Of a DNA stretch of 64,000 bases, positions 2,826 to 52,000 are shown piece after piece. This DNA is from a virus. The translations under genes were made by a program, and so were the position numbers. The stretch spans positions 1 through 64,000 of the IMG/VR virus record IMGVR_UViG_3300042503_000209, one strand, 5' to 3'. The notes under the pieces are model-generated. The model had not been told where the DNA came from. It saw nothing but the letters and a program-made list of their open reading frames with translations, and did no database searches. Numbering within the stretch: the first letter of the stretch is position 1; each line of letters starts with the position of its first letter.

Positions 2826-3056
2826 ATGAAGCCTATTAATAAATTTACAGTTGCTGTAATAGTGATCTTATTATTATGCATATCTGTATCTTATTATAAT
2901 GTATTAAAGCATTATCAAATACAAAATGTTAAATATGACTTTCCAGAAGAGTTTAATCCTGAGACTATTTCTCAGGATAGAACAAAACCAACAGAAATGA
3001 TGGTCATTTACGATACTGTTAGTAACAAGTACGTATTTGAATTCATGGATAAGTAA
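2826..3056 (+). CDS. single-TM hypothetical protein
   Basis: N-terminal hydrophobic segment. Confidence 0.7.
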   Translation: MKPINKFTVAVIVILLLCISVSYYNVLKHYQIQNVKYDFPEEFNPETISQDRTKPTEMMVIYDTVSNKYVFEFMDK

Positions 3057-3059
3057 TAT

Positions 3060-3316
3060 AAAGAAGGTGAGGGTAGCAATAGCTATCGTGGGCAAGCTCT
3101 TGTCCAAACCAATCGGACTTAGGATACTGATCAACCATGAGCTGCTGTAGTTGATGACGACTACCGTGACGGGGGTAATGAAAGCAGAAGCTTACAGTGA
3201 TTAACTTCACGTAAGATAAGTAGACGTTAGTAATTATACAATACCGAGACTATCAGCATAGCTGTTTAGAAGTAGGAAACTCCAATCATAATCAGTACGT
3301 CAAGCTGATTGTTTTT
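3060..3316 (+). ncRNA. candidate structured non-coding RNA
   Basis: Intergenic and GC-richer than flanks; hairpins ggtagc/gctatc, gggcaag/cttgtcc, cttac-gtga/tcac-gtaag; long-range gctgtagt/actatcagc; ends in an ataatcag/ctgattgt + T-run hairpin. Confidence 0.5.
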
Positions 3317-3344
3317 AAATTTTCATTCATAAACATAATCAATT

Positions 3345-3965
3345 ATGTCATTTAGAGATAGTAAATTCAACCACGCAGAAGATAATTTCCATTTAGCATT
3401 AGGAGTTACTTCTGAAATTAAAACTATATGCAGAGAACGTATATTCTTTGCATCACTTAGTAATGCTTTACAAGCAGATGAACTGTTTGATGATATGGAA
3501 GAAGCACCAAAAGAGTTTAAAACCGTAACAGGTGACTTACAAAGGTTAATATCTATGATTACAAATCCAATTGAGTATGATTATACTCTTCTTGTATTCA
3601 TGATGTACCAGCGTATGGCAAAAGAGGTGTATGTTCATTATAAAAATGCCAAAGAAGATCCAGTTGCTTCTCGTGAAGAGCAAATTAAAATGGAGATTAT
3701 TAAAGGTATAATGAAGCTTAAAGAAATGAAAGATCGTGAAGAATCTGGTGAAAGTAATACAGATGATGATGATGATAGTATTGAAGTATTAAGTAAAGAA
3801 AGTATTACAGAACGTATTAACTTGATTAAAAAGAGTGGATACAATTTTGATAAATATTTAAATCTTTTACGTAGTACAGATATTATTAGTTCACGTAATA
3901 AAAAGTCAGATTTTGATATAAGTGATCTTTTATCAGGATTATTTTCAAAAGATGATGATGACTAG
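3345..3965 (+). CDS. hypothetical acidic helical protein
   Basis: 206-aa ORF with A-rich leader. Confidence 0.8.
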   Translation: MSFRDSKFNHAEDNFHLALGVTSEIKTICRERIFFASLSNALQADELFDDMEEAPKEFKTVTGDLQRLISMITNPIEYDYTLLVFMMYQRMAKEVYVHYKNAKEDPVASREEQIKMEIIKGIMKLKEMKDREESGESNTDDDDDSIEVLSKESITERINLIKKSGYNFDKYLNLLRSTDIISSRNKKSDFDISDLLSGLFSKDDDD

Positions 3966-4054
3966 TTTTTCATAGAGGGTTAACAAGGTGTTAGAAGGAA
4001 GAGATTATGTCTCTCCCATTCTTTTTAACTTTCTAAAATTTAAGAACCACACTT

Positions 4055-4342
4055 ATGAAGTTTAATAATCCTCGTATACAAAAAGGTTTTGGTCAAGCTA
4101 CGAGTTTAGTAATGCGTGATCCTGAAATATCTTTACGAGACAAAGGTTTATATGCATATTTATGTACTTACGCTAATGCTACTAACAATGAATTAGTAGT
4201 AAGTGTACATAGAATGGCATCAGAATGTGGTATCACTACGTCAACTGTCAAACGTTCACTTGAATCTCTAGAAGAAAAAGGTGTAATAGCACGTATATAT
4301 CAAGGACCTAGAGTTACAAAGCTTACAGTTATATTAAAATAA
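4055..4342 (+). CDS. winged helix-turn-helix DNA-binding protein (HTH_36-like)
   Basis: DPEISLRDKGLYAYLC...SVHRMASECGITTSTVKRSLESLEEKGVI pattern. Confidence 0.8.
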   Translation: MKFNNPRIQKGFGQATSLVMRDPEISLRDKGLYAYLCTYANATNNELVVSVHRMASECGITTSTVKRSLESLEEKGVIARIYQGPRVTKLTVILK

Positions 4343-4344
4343 TA

Positions 4345-4867
4345 TGGGTCTCATTATAATTTCACATAAGAAGTCTAGCTTGCAAAACTAGAATGTATTA
4401 TTGGGAGTTAGAGACCCACCCTTCTTTAAGGCAAGTGGGACCTGTGCACATATATTAGGTGTAAATACACGCTAGTATATGAATAAGTCCTTGTCCCCAC
4501 GCCATGTTATTGAGAGCTATGTGATTATATAAAGATAGTACTAGTCGCTTAAACTAGCCCGCTTGACATATATGATGCATAGTTCTCATACCTTATTAAC
4601 TGATTACAGTAACATCATATAAGTCGTATGTGGCTTGGCCCAGCATTGGTCTGCTGTAATAGTTAATTAATTAAAGTCTGATCCCAGGAGCTAAATAGCG
4701 TATTAACTAAATTAGTCAGGGCAGTATCAAGTGAGCGGTTCCGTCACTCAGTAGTACGACATGATGATAGAGCTCCGTCAAACGAACAGTGGTCATACCT
4801 AGTAACAGTCGATCAGAACAGCACTAGACCCATAAGAACTATGGAACCCTGGGATAGACTTTTAATT
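4345..4867 (+). ncRNA. candidate large structured non-coding RNA (five consecutive domains)
   Basis: Stems 4345-52/4411-18, 4449-58/4472-81, 4511-22/4577-88, 4595-4610/4653-67 and 4669-88/4848-67; no ORF of 60 aa or more in the track. Confidence 0.6.
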
Positions 4868-4903
4868 CTGTATTTATTAATAATTCCATATAAATTCATT
4901 TAA

Positions 4904-5638
4904 ATGAAAGATTCTAAAGTAGTAGGAAAAATCTTCCAAACAAAAAACTATGATCAGTTTAAGTATAGAGCTGATAATAGACCTGTGGACGCATCAAACG
5001 TACACAAATTGGTTAAAAGCTTTGAAGTAATGGGACAAAAAATTCCAATCAAAGTAGACTCTAGTATGAATGTACTAGACGGGCAACATCGTTTAAAAGC
5101 ATGTGTGCAGTTAAAAATTCCAGTAATTTTCATCATTGATGATGAAGATATGACAACATCAGAAATTGCACAACTTCAAGCTACTACTAAAAAGTGGACA
5201 TATGAAGACTATGCACATAGTTTTGCTAATGATGAAAATTTGGTAGATTACAGATTGTATAACAACTTCTGTAGTGTATATTCAGAGTTTCCACATAGCA
5301 CTGCTATTCTTATGTTAGGTAATCAGCGTACAGCTGGTGGTAACGCAGACCAAGTCTTTAAATCAGGTAAATTTAAGATTAAAAGTTTTGCTAAAGCTAA
5401 GCATATTGCTGAAACTTTAAGAAAGATGTCTATTTATTACAAAAACTACAATCGTAAAGGTTTTGTATCATCTATTATTGTGATGATGAACCATAAAGAT
5501 TATAGCGAAGAAAGACTATTTAGAAAGCTTCCAAAGCGTTGTAAAGAAATTCATGACTTCAGTAAAACAGAAGATTATTTGGATACTTTACAAGATATCT
5601 ATAACTGGAAAGAAACTAAGAAAGTCTATTTTCATTAA
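4904..5638 (+). CDS. ParB/Srx N-terminal domain protein
   Basis: NRPVD...IPIKVD..NVLDGQHRLKAC motif. Confidence 0.8.
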   Translation: MKDSKVVGKIFQTKNYDQFKYRADNRPVDASNVHKLVKSFEVMGQKIPIKVDSSMNVLDGQHRLKACVQLKIPVIFIIDDEDMTTSEIAQLQATTKKWTYEDYAHSFANDENLVDYRLYNNFCSVYSEFPHSTAILMLGNQRTAGGNADQVFKSGKFKIKSFAKAKHIAETLRKMSIYYKNYNRKGFVSSIIVMMNHKDYSEERLFRKLPKRCKEIHDFSKTEDYLDTLQDIYNWKETKKVYFH

Positions 5639-5644
5639 AAATAT

Positions 5645-5852
5645 TACTAGATTGAAGTTTGGATGGTATAAACACCAATCGTCCACATATGTCCTCTTAG
5701 TATTGCACTGTAGAGAGCCATTGCTTAACTGGTCATCTAGTAGCAGTTGATGAAGTGCTAGGTCTGGAAGCTACTTATATATATCCTAGTAGCAAAAGCA
5801 GAATAATACAAAGGTAAATTTTTCCAGGTCTGAACCGTATATGTTAGTCAAC
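5645..5852 (+). ncRNA. candidate structured RNA (two domains)
   Basis: tactagat/atctagta (5645-52/5735-42), tggatg/cgtcca, ggtctggaag/tttccaggtc, gctact/agtagc, gttga/tcaac. Confidence 0.45.
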
Positions 5853-5857
5853 GAACC

Positions 5858-5891
5858 AAAAGTGGTGGGAGTAAAATCTCACCACTTTTTT
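5858..5891 (+). terminator. intrinsic terminator
   Basis: aaaagtggtggga-gtaaaa-tctcaccactttttt. Confidence 0.8.
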
Positions 5892-5903
5892 AAATTTAAA
5901 TCT

Positions 5904-6179
5904 ATGGATAAAGAATTGTTATTACTCTGTAGCTGTTACAGCCCAGAGCATCAAATTATTATACATTTAGATGAAGGTGGTGATTTATATCCACCAGAAG
6001 CATTTGTGCATGTACACTTAGTAAAACGATCCTTTTGGTATCGTGTTAAGTATGCAACAAAATATATATTTGGATTTAAATCCAGGTACGGTGCATGGGA
6101 CGAATTTATCCTAGATAAAACTCATGCAGAATCTCTTAGAAAAATAGCTAAACACTTAAATGATGAAACAGTATACTAA
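5904..6179 (+). CDS. hypothetical protein
   Basis: Start moved to ATG 5904 (MDKELLLLCSC), downstream of the terminator. Confidence 0.7.
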   Translation: MDKELLLLCSCYSPEHQIIIHLDEGGDLYPPEAFVHVHLVKRSFWYRVKYATKYIFGFKSRYGAWDEFILDKTHAESLRKIAKHLNDETVY

Positions 6180-49044: not shown

Positions 49045-52000
49045 TTATTCTCCTTTACAACCAGCGTCATCTTCTTTTTTACGTTCCTGTAGTTCACTTC
49101 TTTTAGCAGCTAGAAGCTTCTGTAAGTTCTTCTTAGCTTCTTCTGGGTCTATGTCAGTTGGTACAGGATTGGTAAAGTTAGGCATTTCTCCCTCAGATTC
49201 ATCAGTAGCTTTAAAAGTATTTTTCATAGCTTTTGGTGAAACAGGCTGCTCTTGACGAGTCTCTTTTAGAACACGCAATAGCTCAGCTGGTTCAGTAATC
49301 TCAGTGTCATACTTAACATCTTTACCGTTTTCTTTTTTATAGAAGGTAAGTTTATTACCTACTATCTGGAAGGTAATTCCCCAATCTTCTTGCAGATCTC
49401 TAGCTTCAGTACTAAATCTTAAAGGATCAAAGTTTCCGATAATATTATCTAGTTCAATTTCTGCTTTAGCTAAAGCTGCTTCAGAAAGATTAAACTTATT
49501 ATTATTAGAAGCTTTTCTATTTCTAAGTACCAAGTTAGTAGGCATCTCACCTGTAAGTCCACCAACCTTCCATTGTTTTCTAGAACCAGTAGGCTCAAAT
49601 TTCTCATATACAGCTGTGTTGCTTAGTGCTATAGTATCACCTACATTTTTAATAAATGACCCAACACCTTCTATAGGAGTAGATTGAGTTACTACTTCTT
49701 CTAATCTCTTAAGCTCAGCGTTTAAGTATTCCCAAGTTCTTGGAGCTTTTTCAGCAAGCTTAGCTAAACCTACACCAATTGGAGGCACAGTTAACTTGTT
49801 ATACTTACCAGTGTTCCATACTGCTATAATAGCATCTATGTCTTGAGTAATTATACGTGCATTTTCTTCAAAATCAGCATCAGATTTGAAAGCAGAATCA
49901 TCCATGTTAGGAGCTTTCTTAGTAGAAATACCCATAGCATTAGGCTCACCTCTCATCTCTTTAGCTTGCCCACCTAAACCTTTTCTTGTATCATTATCAC
50001 CAAATACATATAGTGTACCTGGATTTTTCTGAAGATCTTCTCTTTTAAGAATCTTTGTAGTTCTTGAAAAAGCTGTAGCAGTGCTTACCTTCTTAGCTAC
50101 ACTTCTAAGTTTATAATATGTAGCTTTTTCATTTACACCTTTTTCACCTGTAAGTATCTTAACTGTATAAGGTAGTTCAATATAGTATCTATTGTTACCT
50201 TGTTCATCAGGACGATTAGTAAGTTTAAAACCATTAGCTTTTAAAACTTCTTTATTATAGTTTAACTTATCTAAATCCTTTTGCTCAAACTTACCTTTTT
50301 CAAGTACTTCAGTATAAAATTCATTACCAAACTCATCAATCAACAACATGAGTTCAGGTTTACGAACTCCACCAAACAAGTCAATAGCTAGTATAGTTTC
50401 ATCTTCAGACTGCATTATAACTTCAGGTACATATCCTTTAGGTTTATTTTTTTCAGCCTGTGCATTTACTTTCTTACCAGCAAATACTCTTGTTATATTG
50501 AATGTATTATTAATGTTAGTAGTGTACAAAGAAGTAAACTCATTAAACATTTCTGGAGCTGTAGAACCAAATATTTCTTTGTACTTTTCAGTGTTACCAA
50601 CTAAAGAGTCTTCCTTAAGAAGTTGATGAGCTGCCCCTGTAGAATCTAACAACTCTTTAAACATTGCAGGTGGAATAAACTTAATAAAACTACCACTCTT
50701 AAACTGAGCACCATCTTTAACTATAAGATAGTTAAATAAATTGTAAGCTAAAGATCTAGTTTTTGGATTACTATATATCTCTAAGAAGCTATCTTCAATA
50801 CGATTTTGTTCGTGCTGCCCAAGCTTAGCCCATGTATTAGACTCTACAGTGTTAATACCACCTCTTGATTTAGCATTAAAGTATTCTTGACCTGAGTTAA
50901 CATCATATAGTTTTACAGGAACAATGTTTAAGAATTTATTAGCAAAGTAGTTTTTAGGAAGTTGTTGTCTGATAGATTTTACAGTATCAATAATATCCAT
51001 AAACTGATCTCCTCTAGCTACTGCTTCTGCATCATAGATCATTGAATTATCTAAACCGGCTAGCTTTGCACCTTTACCGTTTACTTTTAGATACTGCATG
51101 TAAGCTTTAATACCTAAATAAGAAATGATATCACGCTTTAGTGTAACGTTAAAGGTTTCTGCTTCTTTAGAATTAACTCTTAAATTTTTAAGAATAGTTT
51201 CTTTAAATCTCTGGAAGATATATGTCTTTTCCATAAAGATACTTTTCTGAAGATCTTGAATCTGATTCTTAATTCTTAAATAGTTAGCCGTAATATTATG
51301 ATGAGGTTTAGAAGCATCTTTACCTGTAAGCACTTGACGTAAATCAAATGGTAATTTACTTTCAGAGAATGTAGAGTCATCCATATTTAAACCAAGCATC
51401 TCTTCTTTCTCTTCAATAGCATCAATAGCTTCATTACTTGTACCTAAACCTTTAGATAACTTAAGTACTTGAGCTACAGCAGAATAGTAAGATGTTTGAT
51501 TATAGAAATTTAAGAATGAACTAAATATTGCAACATTAGCTTCTGGGTTAGAACCAGCAGACTTAATATTGTTTTCCAAAAGTTCTGTTGTAATTTCAGG
51601 TAAAGTAGAATCTTTTACTAATTCATTAGAAAGTTCTTCTAAAAGTTCCTCACCAACCTTAGCTTTTACTAAATCTTGTTCTTGAGGTGTTTTAATCTTC
51701 TTAGAAGCTACAGCGATACGCTTATAAAACTCACGAACAGAAGGTTGTAAGTTAAACATAAGTGCTGTTTCTAAAGGTACACCAAGTGCAACCATATTAG
51801 ATACTACACCTACAGCATTAATATTCAATCCAAGACGTGCAGCCAAACGTTCTTTGGCGTTATCCGTCATAGCTGATACTATAGCAGAAATGTGATAGAA
51901 TATACGCTCACCTGTGTATCCTTCAACCTCACTTACTGCACCACCATCACCAATTTCTGTACGTTTTTGGAAAGCTTTGTTATACTCATAACTATTAAAC

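What the first reader, a model, noticed from the sequence alone, without database searches (positions are those of the whole stretch)
4345..4867. About 520-nt densely structured non-coding region with five back-to-back domains
In a genome whose genes mostly abut, this 560-nt gap has no long ORF. It is tiled by long stems with G-U pairs consistent with plus-strand RNA: tgggtctc/gagaccca; catatattag/ctagtatatg inside gtggga/tccccac; tgagagctatgt/gcatagttctca; attaactgattacagt/gctgtaatagttaat. A ~19-bp stem (4669-88/4848-67) closes a multibranch domain with several hairpins (gcta/tagc, actaa/ttagt, gtga.cgg/ccg.tcac, ctagt/actag, ccata/tatgg). I do not recognise it as tRNA, tmRNA, an intron or a standard riboswitch. 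Inference: a novel large phage ncRNA or an array of small RNAs, for example decoys against RNA-based defences.
Basis: seen in the sequence. Interest (0 to 1): 0.75.

Follow-up and report, generated by a model that had tools for sequence, protein, structure and literature searches.

The report
Modular structured RNA island in phage
The 560-base gene-free gap of this freshwater phage holds five real folded non-coding RNA modules that match no catalogued RNA family; related phages keep them by matched mutations, and two share a conserved bulged stem that looks like a docking or cutting site for an unknown protein.

Summary
Window 4343-4903 has no usable ORF under any stop-codon reassignment. It holds five stem-closed domains: D1 4345-4420, D2 4430-4503, D3 4511-4588, D4 4595-4667 and D5 4673-4862.

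All five recur in about 30 uncultured freshwater phage contigs. For the D4 and D5 closing stems across 20 sequences, 97% of cells pair and 16 of 28 pairs show double-sided compensatory changes. No shuffle out of 500 matched this. Thirty-nine G-U cells assign the fold to the + strand.

Nothing in Rfam 15, ARAGORN or the tmRNA model matches.

The region is not one large RNA. It is a shuffled array in a variable slot that starts right after a 95-aa HTH_36 gene. D4-D5 is the near-constant core; D1, D2 and D3 are optional. Relatives add other modules, a tmRNA gene and a tRNA-Ile gene. In the window the ParB-like gene is inserted inside the array.

D4, D5 and a third module type share a handle: C-G, U-A, bulged G, A-U. 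In D5 it is followed by a run of U.

The function is unknown. My best inference is a set of stable small RNAs that present this handle to a protein, on the plan of Y RNAs but without Ro60. The scan noted a D5-type bulged-G RNA in another genome (e1-5937645).

The parts
4055..4342 (+). 95-aa winged-helix gene (Pfam HTH_36). It matches only the N-terminal DNA-binding part of phage replication-initiator families. The RNA array starts within a few bases of its stop codon in every relative.
   Evidence: Pfam PF13730 E 1.4e-10. PHROG 270/428/8102 match N-terminal parts only. 19 loci with a 45-91% identical 91-100 aa homologue all have a 270-1250 nt gene-free stretch downstream.
4345..4420 (+). D1: optional module. 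An 8-bp outer stem encloses a conserved UUUCACRUA stretch and a small hairpin capped by UGCAAAA.
   Evidence: z = -3.54. Homologous modules occur in L035, L041 and L047, with unrelated but complementary outer stems and the same inner motifs. Absent from L002-L007, L019 and L020.
4430..4503 (+). D2: module with an outer GGC/GCC helix, a GGGA/UCCC helix and a long inner hairpin.
   Evidence: RNAalifold on 10 sequences gives 11 pairs, 7 with double-sided changes, for example GGC/GCC to UAG/CUA.
4511..4588 (+). D3: optional long irregular hairpin with a small apical hairpin.
   Evidence: z = -4.64. Present in L019, L030 and L035. 7 of 20 pairs have double-sided changes among three sequences.
4595..4667 (+). 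D4: about 70-nt three-helix rod. The handle stem has a bulged G at 4602 (5' ACUGAUU / 3' AAUAGU). It also has an inner helix, a conserved RUAAGWC internal loop and a covarying apical hairpin.
   Evidence: 13-pair stem, 9 pairs with double-sided changes. 19 homologues fold with the same outer bulged stem; the inner folds vary. Found by the handle scan of the whole genome.
4673..4862 (+). D5: 190-nt multibranch domain. It is closed by a 15-bp handle stem with a bulged G at 4680 (5' UCUGAUC / 3' GAUAGA) and followed by UUUU (4860-4863). It contains helix GUCACU/AGUGGU, which flanks an optional insert (about 4750-4785).
   Evidence: 15-pair stem is 99% paired, 7 pairs with double-sided changes. 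Covariance model R1 finds one copy per phage in 25 loci, E 5e-39 to 1e-3. The inner helix covaries. Two subtypes exist.
4904..5638 (+). ParB-like 244-aa gene, an insertion inside the RNA array and not a fixed partner.
   Evidence: PHROG 12305 E 1.3e-30. L032 and L037 run from D5 straight into the 5635-5900 module. Metatranscriptome contigs join 4859/4863 to 5635. Other relatives have 143-aa, 163-aa or 92-aa genes here.
5635..5892 (+). Further structured module of the same array (E6), ending in a strong intrinsic terminator (stem about 5861-5886, then UUUUUU).
   Evidence: 70-72% identical to the stretch that directly follows D5 in L032 and L037. The terminator is read in the sequence. The simple terminator scan of 3300-5700 did not reach it.

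Best explanation
Shown.
- The gap is part of a phage 'RNA island', a variable slot between two backbone genes: the 95-aa HTH_36 gene and a 92-aa gene.
- The slot is filled with independent, stem-closed non-coding RNA modules read from the + strand.
- The near-constant core is a tandem pair: D4 (about 70 nt) and D5 (150-230 nt).
- D1, D2 and D3 in this window, and other modules, a tmRNA gene and a tRNA gene in relatives, are optional cargo.
- D4, D5 and a third module type share one 'handle' in their closing stems: C-G, U-A, a bulged G, A-U.
- In most relatives the D5 handle is followed by a run of 4-7 U.

Inferred.
- The array is transcribed together with the HTH gene, because no room for a promoter is left after its stop codon.
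- The transcript ends at the D5 U-run or at the terminator at about 5890.
- The modules are released or persist as stable small RNAs.
- The handle is the docking or cutting site of one protein, phage or host, still unidentified.
- The variable inserts would give each RNA its own task. This is the logic of Ro60 with its Y RNAs, used here without Ro60.
- The likely purpose is host takeover at the level of RNA metabolism or translation, as for the tmRNA and tRNA genes that share the slot.
For: No known family. No Rfam match in the whole window at gathering score. Only noise up to E 10 in 4200-5000. No tRNA or tmRNA.

Covariation and strand; 97% paired, 16 of 28 pairs with double changes, 0 of 500 shuffles, and 39 G-U cells against 17 non-standard cells.

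Modularity. Alignments.

Handle.
- It is shared by D4, D5 and module X.
- It occurs only twice on the + strand of the 108-kb genome, against 0.1 expected.
- Where the U-A pair after the bulge changes it is compensated (L042, CUGAC/GUAG).

Link to the HTH gene. 17 of 19 HTH loci carry a D5-type RNA downstream, and the other two carry a tmRNA.

Same-strand tmRNA or tRNA in the slot in relatives.

U-run after the D5 stem. Terminator after E6.

RNA-library contigs. Contigs from four metatranscriptome studies cover D2-D5 and E6. One 750-nt contig runs from the HTH 3' end through D2-D5 into E6, at depth 26, against 1-4 for contigs on upstream genes.
Against: No partner protein was identified.
- No TROVE/Ro60, TerD or vWA domain in this record, and no TROVE in five relatives.
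- TROVE was found in only 1 of 151 Flavobacteriaceae genomes.

Transcript ends, processing and stability are unknown. The RNA evidence is assembled contigs. These can contain DNA, cannot show ends or strand, and their depth must not be used to rank genes.

The interior fold of D5 is only partly resolved.

The handle could be a processing site only, with no bound partner.

The host is not established. Flavobacterium-type is an earlier unchecked note.
Confidence: 0.5

Rival explanations
1. Processing and stability elements only. The stems are RNase III-type or similar cleavage and protection structures. They mature and stabilise the HTH mRNA and the neighbouring RNA genes (tmRNA, tRNA), as the R sites do in T7 early RNA or the long-range stems do around rRNAs. 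The modules have no function of their own.
For: The long closing stems carry a conserved irregularity. The array lies directly behind an mRNA and, in relatives, in front of a tmRNA that must be cut out. The handle is repeated at module boundaries.
Against: The interiors of D4 and D5 are more conserved in sequence than needed for a cleavage stem: RUAAGWC, GGAGCUAnnUAGCGUAUUAAC, CCAUAAGAACUAUGGAA. D4-D5 persists in phages that have no tmRNA nearby, including this one.
Confidence: 0.17
2. Replication-origin element. The HTH_36 protein is a cut-down initiator. The structured transcript, or the displaced + strand as single-stranded DNA, primes or licenses replication, as with ColE1 RNA II, the lactococcal phage c2 ori transcript (from my own knowledge, not checked here) or the ARRPOF motif.
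For: The HTH matches the N-terminal domains of phage replication initiators and RepL. 30%-identical homologues are the N-terminal part of 280-324 aa proteins. The RNA starts at the stop codon of this gene. G-T wobble is also tolerated in DNA hairpins.
Against: The modules are gained, lost and shuffled, and protein genes, tmRNA and tRNA are inserted among them. An origin would not tolerate that. No iterons or AT-rich unwinding block were found. The replication genes lie 6-38 kb away. The ARRPOF match is noise, 11 bits against a 127-bit cut-off.
Confidence: 0.1
3. Cis-acting leader. D5, alone or with D4, is a riboswitch or antiterminator that controls the gene downstream of it.
For: D5 ends 20-45 nt before the next start codon in many phages. 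Its closing stem plus U-run looks like a terminator. Its multi-junction core has many invariant unpaired bases.
Against: The downstream gene differs between phages: ParB-like, 143 aa, 163 aa, 92 aa. In L032 and L037 it is another RNA module followed by a terminator. No alternative antiterminator pairing was seen. The same handle closes the small D4, which has no gene behind it.
Confidence: 0.1
4. One reading: the RNAs are decoys against RNA-guided or RNA-sensing host defences.
For: The array sits in a variable accessory slot, as anti-defence genes often do. This is a special case of the protein-binding reading.
Against: No defence or anti-defence gene is linked to it. There is no likeness to CRISPR repeats: the RF01339 hit at 4859-4883 scores 17.8 bits against a 35-bit cut-off, E 7.3. 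There is no tRNA-like part.
Confidence: 0.08

Closest known systems
Y RNAs with Ro60/Rsr (vertebrate Y1-Y5; bacterial and phage YrlA/YrlB, Yrn1; Chen et al. 2014, PMC4201824)
   Same: Small RNAs whose 5' and 3' ends form a stem with a conserved one-base bulge, followed by a U-run. Several RNAs share that stem around different inserts. In phages they are encoded in tandem, next to tmRNA or tRNA genes. The D5 5' strand GGUCUGA in many relatives differs by one base from the vertebrate Ro-contact motif GGUCCGA quoted in that paper.
   Different: No TROVE protein in this phage or in five relatives, and it is rare in the supposed host family. The bacterial motif GNCGAAN0-1G is absent. The bulged base is G, in a different register. 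There is no tRNA-like domain. D5 is larger than any Y RNA. No Rfam Y RNA model matches.
Small stable RNAs inside phage tRNA clusters (T4 species 1 and 2, rnaC and rnaD; from my own knowledge)
   Same: Phage-encoded structured RNAs of unknown function that share a transcription unit and a genome slot with tRNA-type genes and must be cut out of a precursor.
   Different: No sequence or fold likeness was tested or is expected. This window has no tRNA, and the modules are larger and more numerous.
Large ornate phage and prophage RNAs GOLLD (RF01998) and ROOL (RF03087)
   Same: Large multi-domain non-coding RNAs of phages, often beside tRNA genes, with function unknown.
   Different: No cmscan match. 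Here the 520 nt are separate shuffled modules, not one fold.
RNase III processing stems (T7 early R sites; stems flanking 16S and 23S rRNA; from my own knowledge)
   Same: Long helices with a conserved irregularity that bracket a functional RNA and lie between units of a polycistronic transcript.
   Different: Cleavage is untested. The handle is sequence-conserved (CUGAU/AUAG) beyond what RNase III needs.

Membership tests
Any Rfam 15 family | Covariance-model score at or above the family's gathering score | tested here: not met
   No match in the 64-kb window. In 4200-5000, up to E 10, there are only two sub-threshold hits: CRISPR-DR27 17.8 of 35 bits and ARRPOF 11.1 of 127 bits. In 11 relatives only tmRNA and tRNA matched, outside D1-D5.
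tRNA / tmRNA | Cloverleaf or tRNA-like domain with acceptor stem and T arm | tested here: not met
   ARAGORN finds none in the window. RF00023 and RF00005 find none in the whole 108-kb record. The GCCA after D2 is the 3' strand of a covarying GGC/GCC helix, not a free CCA end.
Y RNA (Ro60/Rsr ligand) | Encoded beside, or in a genome with, a TROVE-domain Ro60 protein | tested here: not met
   PF05731 is absent from this record and from five relatives, four of them at least 90% complete. It is present in 1 of 151 Flavobacteriaceae genomes.
Y RNA (Ro60/Rsr ligand) | Ro-binding motif: GGUCCGA (vertebrates) or GNCGAAN0-1G (bacteria) in the 5' strand of the terminal stem | tested here: not met
   The motif definition comes from PMC4201824. 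Here the 5' strand is (G)GUCUGAUC in D5 and ACUGAUU in D4. It is one base off the vertebrate motif and does not fit the bacterial one.
Y RNA (Ro60/Rsr ligand) | Terminal stem of 5' and 3' ends with a bulged base, then a 3' U-run | tested here: met
   (stem with bulged G). (U4-7 after the D5 stem in most sequences).
Y RNA (YrlA type) | tRNA-like module (D and T arms) | tested here: not met
   No tRNA-like hit by ARAGORN or Rfam in or near D4 and D5.
Riboswitch or cis-regulatory leader | Constant association with one class of downstream gene, plus an expression platform | tested here: not met
   The downstream gene varies or is absent. No alternative pairing was found.
Replication-origin RNA or DNA structure | Initiation of DNA synthesis at this place; iterons or an unwinding element | not testable with these tools
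   No direct-repeat family beyond chance pairs in 4200-5000. The function itself needs experiments.
RNase III-type processing stem | Cleavage within the stem in vivo or in vitro | not testable with these tools
   Only contigs of RNA libraries were available. They show no ends.

The most novel reading that the evidence does not exclude
The shared bulged-G handle is the address of an undescribed RNA-binding protein. The protein could be the adjacent 95-aa winged-helix protein, the conserved acidic protein of about 200 aa just upstream, or a host factor. D4, D5 and module X would then be interchangeable cargo RNAs of a Ro60-independent, Y-RNA-like ribonucleoprotein system. Freshwater phages would use it, together with their own tmRNA, to reprogramme RNA turnover or translation in the infected cell.
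Probability: 0.22. Interest if true: 0.8.

Novelty: new variant of a known kind. Interest (0 to 1): 0.58.

Why it matters
Phage RNA islands are usually read as tRNA clusters. Here a whole slot is filled with at least seven uncatalogued structured RNA modules plus, in relatives, a tmRNA.

Three features make this testable rather than only a catalogue entry:
- Three module types carry one conserved handle, which points to a common protein partner or nuclease.
- The modules are short and well delimited.
- About 25 natural variants already supply compensatory mutants.

If a partner exists, it would be a new RNA-protein system of phage host takeover. If the handle is only a cutting site, it defines a new sequence-specific processing signal in the phages of abundant lake bacteria.

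Tried and rejected
- **Known RNA families.** Rfam at gathering and at E 10, ARAGORN, and tmRNA/tRNA models on the whole record found nothing.
- **Phage GenBank records.** blastn of 4000-5000 gave no match.
- **Recoded protein gene.** All six frames are closed under TGA, TAG or TAA reassignment.
- **D2 as a tRNA-like minihelix with an encoded CCA.** Rejected. The GCC pairs with an upstream GGC and covaries to UAG/CUA.
- **Kink-turn or box C/D reading of CUGA ... AUGAUGA.** Rejected by hand. The register needed would break pairs that covary, and the AUGAUGA insert is optional.
- **Ro60, TerD or vWA partner.** Absent.
- **Host or prophage copies.**
  - A strict two-gap pattern in 596 Gb of prokaryote genomes gave 14 hits, about the number I estimate for chance.
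  - The two Bacteroidota hits lie in coding DNA, and none matches the D4-D5 profile.
  - Model R1 found none in 151 Flavobacteriaceae genomes.
- **Interior fold of D5.** RNAalifold, averaged pair probabilities and a column-pair scan resolved only the closing stem, a GCU/AGC hairpin and a weak UAG/CUA helix. The CCAUA/UAUGG hairpin is not compensated in L020 and L047.
- **Palindrome GAGCUC in the apical loop of the optional insert as a dimerisation site.** The only variant (AAAUUU) lies in A/U-only sequence, where palindromes are common, so this is not evidence.
- **Papers.** Two full-text searches gave no description of this RNA. The 2023 catalogue of more than 10,000 phage RNA candidates (PMC10690425) has no supplement held as text, so I cannot say whether the motif is listed there.
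- **Protein atlas** on the upstream 206-aa protein gave no usable hit.
More distant HTH contexts were taken from the search for related loci instead.
- **RNA-run depth** cannot be used as an expression level.

Full report
**What is in the window**

The window is the first 64 kb of a 108-kb IMG/VR virus record, estimated 83% complete. Positions 4343-4903 lie between a 95-aa gene (4055-4342, +) and a 244-aa gene (4904-5638, +).

- No ORF of 30 aa or more with a start codon lies in the gap.
- All six frames hold 13-21 stops, and reading TGA, TAG or TAA as sense does not open any frame.
- GC rises only slightly, from about 0.30-0.33 outside to 0.36-0.39 in the gap.

Folding energy against dinucleotide shuffles:

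| Stretch | + strand z | - strand z |
|---|---|---|
| Whole gap | -2.83 | -2.48 |
| D1 | -3.54 | -2.74 |
| D2 | -2.29 | -1.44 |
| D3 | -4.64 | -2.40 |
| D4 | -1.97 | -1.33 |
| D5 | -2.19 | not run |

. The energy is better than chance, and in D1-D4 the + strand folds more stably than the - strand. On its own this would not be convincing.

**Known families**

- Rfam 15 finds nothing in the window at gathering score.
- Up to E 10 in 4200-5000 it gives only two sub-threshold hits.
- ARAGORN finds no tRNA or tmRNA.
- The tmRNA and tRNA models find nothing in the whole record.
- blastn against 50,697 phage records finds nothing.

**Relatives**

- Searching with the downstream ParB-like protein gave seven viral and eleven metagenome loci.
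- Two DNA patterns taken from the D5 closing stem gave 13 more viral contigs.
- A profile of the 95-aa protein gave ten more.
- All are uncultured, and the DNA runs holding this stretch are lake or freshwater metagenomes.
- A D4-D5 profile and a covariance model of D5 (R1) find exactly one copy per phage, in about 30 contigs and about 25 distinct sequences.

**Covariation**

The test used a MAFFT alignment made without structure information: 20 distinct D4-D5 sequences (A8). On the 28 pairs of the D4 outer stem and the D5 closing stem:

- 97.0% of cells form a standard pair. The shuffled mean is 86.4% and partners slid by 1-3 columns give 34-47%.
- 16 pairs and 63 cells show a change on both sides. 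The shuffled means are 8.3 pairs and 15.8 cells, and 0 of 500 shuffles reach the observed values.
- 39 cells are G-U or U-G, which would be A-C mismatches on the other strand. Only 17 cells are non-standard, and 8 of those are in one terminal pair.

So the selected fold is that of the + strand, the sense of all flanking genes.

The other domains:

- **D2:** 11 consensus pairs, 7 with double changes, including GGC/GCC to UAG/CUA in the outermost helix.
- **D3:** 7 of 20 pairs with double changes among three informative sequences.
- **D1:** present in L035, L041 and L047 with unrelated outer-stem sequences that are each self-complementary. The inner UUUCACRUA and UGCAAAA motifs are the same. The automatic alignment failed, so this rests on reading the sequences.
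- **Inside D5:** the helix GUCACU/AGUGGU that flanks an optional insert changes to UUACU/AGUAA, UAUACU/AGUAUA, GUUAU/AUAAU and GUCAUU/GAUGGU.
- **Rest of the D5 interior:** not resolved.

**It is an array, not one RNA**

- Close relatives have a gap of 350-390 nt holding D2, D4 and D5 only.
- L019 adds D3, and the window adds D1 and D3.
- More distant phages start with D4 a few bases after the stop codon of the 95-aa gene (L029, L032, L034, L037).
- Others carry D1 or a further module X before D4 (L030, L035, L041, L047).
- D5 comes in two subtypes and has an optional 35-nt insert.
- The window stretch 5635-5900, behind the ParB-like gene, is homologous to the module that directly follows D5 in L032 and L037. 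It ends in a strong terminator.
- RNA-library contigs of two studies, X16 and X17, join 4859/4863 directly to 5635.

The ParB-like gene is therefore an insertion inside the array.

In six relatives a tmRNA gene, and in one also tRNA-Ile, lies 0.3-3 kb downstream on the same strand. In L034 it is in the same gene-free stretch and is followed by a terminator.

The backbone is conserved:

1. An acidic protein of about 200 aa.
2. The 95-aa HTH_36 protein.
3. The variable slot.
4. A 92-aa protein (PHROG 12660).
5. A protein of about 190 aa.

**The handle**

The closing stems of D4 and D5 share one local motif: C-G, U-A, a bulged G, A-U, U-A. It reads 5' CUGAU on one strand and AUAG on the other. 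The bulged G is at 4602 in D4 and at 4680 in D5.

- The same motif closes module X in L035 and L047.
- Where the last U-A pair changes it is compensated (L042, CUGAC/GUAG).
- A scan of the whole 108-kb genome for this motif with flanking arms finds only D4 and D5 on the + strand. It also finds two G-U-rich hits on the - strand, one of which (49766-49887) lies inside the 4545-aa ORF; the other (99323-99393) is outside the window and was not looked at. Twenty shuffled genomes gave 0.1 on average.
- In most sequences the D5 stem is followed by 4-7 U, as at the 3' end of a terminator-ended small RNA.

I found this motif in the alignments.

**Transcription**

Six metatranscriptome runs hold 5-7% of the words of 3000-6000. 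Laying four of them, from four studies, shows contigs of relatives over D2-D5 and E6. One 750-nt contig runs from the 3' end of the HTH gene through D2-D5 into E6. Contigs over the RNA modules have higher depth (10-50) than those over the upstream genes (1-6) in three of the four runs.

The tool warns that contig depth must not be used to rank genes and that DNA can be present in RNA libraries. This is a weak hint of transcription, no more.

**What it is not**

- **Not a Ro60/Y RNA system by membership.**
  - No TROVE protein in this record or in five relatives.
  - TROVE in 1 of 151 Flavobacteriaceae genomes.
  - The bacterial Rsr motif quoted in PMC4201824 is absent, and there is no tRNA-like domain.
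- **No TerD or vWA protein**.
- **No host copy.** Not found in 151 Flavobacteriaceae genomes with R1, nor by a strict pattern in the 596-Gb genome collection, where the hits are chance.
- **Not a riboswitch-type leader.** The downstream gene varies or is missing.
- **An origin of replication is unlikely.** The slot tolerates gain, loss and insertion of modules and genes, and it has no iterons.

The 95-aa protein is a generic winged helix. It matches only the N-terminal DNA-binding part of initiator families.

**Best reading**

Shown: a family of uncatalogued, + strand, stem-closed RNA modules in a variable RNA island, with a D4-D5 core and a shared handle.

Inferred:

- The array is co-transcribed with the HTH gene.
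- Transcription ends at the D5 U-run or at the E6 terminator.
- The modules persist as stable small RNAs.
- The handle is recognised by one protein, either as a partner or as a nuclease.

The plan is that of Y RNAs: one conserved bulged stem, variable inserts, tandem genes, tmRNA alongside. The defining partner and motif of that family are absent, so this is 'works like', not 'is a member of'.

I put 0.5 on this reading as a whole. I put about 0.9 on the part that says these are real, selected RNA structures.

Noticed in passing
window 4904-5638, with joints 4859/4863 to 5635: The ParB-like gene is present or absent between D5 and the next RNA module. RNA-library contigs of two studies, and relatives L032 and L037, lack it with clean boundaries. 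In L008 the ParB-like gene lies before the D5-type RNA instead of after it.
   Followed up: partly
window 5635-5892: This is a further structured module of the same array. It carries two copies of a CUAGUAGCA motif that also occurs in D5 (ACCUAGUAAC/ACYUAGUAGC). It ends in a strong intrinsic terminator at about 5861-5892.
   Followed up: partly
window 3060-3316: Another GC-richer gene-free stretch of about 250 nt lies upstream of the 206-aa gene. I did not test it.
   Followed up: no
L029 2397-3080, L034 2753-3226 (-), L044 7076-7493 (-), L045 5217-5731, L046 3906-4491, L047 4547-4986: Relatives carry a tmRNA gene in the same slot and strand. The matches span 418-684 nt, so some are much longer than the 374-position model and probably hold insertions. 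ARAGORN reads a tag peptide ending in VAIAA in L044.
   Followed up: partly
window 3345-3965 and homologues (alignment A12): A conserved acidic protein of about 200 aa always precedes the HTH gene. It has no Pfam, PHROG or atlas match. It ends in a conserved DFDIxDLLxxLF tail that recalls clamp-binding or SSB-tail peptides.
   Followed up: partly
L035 1503+165..+400, L030 1-185, L047 2598+96..+231: Module X (GUAGCGAAAGGUUGAGCUG ... AAGUGCUCCCCAAGUGA) is closed by the same bulged-G handle. In L029 and L034 another module (AGAUGCCGGCAUACCG ... GGUAUGCAUCAC) lies upstream of the tmRNA (directly before it in L034). Neither matches Rfam.
   Followed up: partly
window about 4760-4776: The apical loop of the optional insert in D5 holds the palindrome GAGCUC, which is invariant in 10 of the 13 listed sequences that carry the insert. 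L002, L004 and L018 have AAAUUU at the same place. This is too little variation to call it a dimerisation loop.
   Followed up: partly
L067-L085 (IMG/VR contigs of about 33-46 kb from isolate genomes): 30%-identical relatives of the 95-aa HTH protein are the N-terminal part of 280-324 aa proteins. The phage protein therefore looks like a stand-alone DNA-binding domain of a replication-initiator-type family.
   Followed up: no
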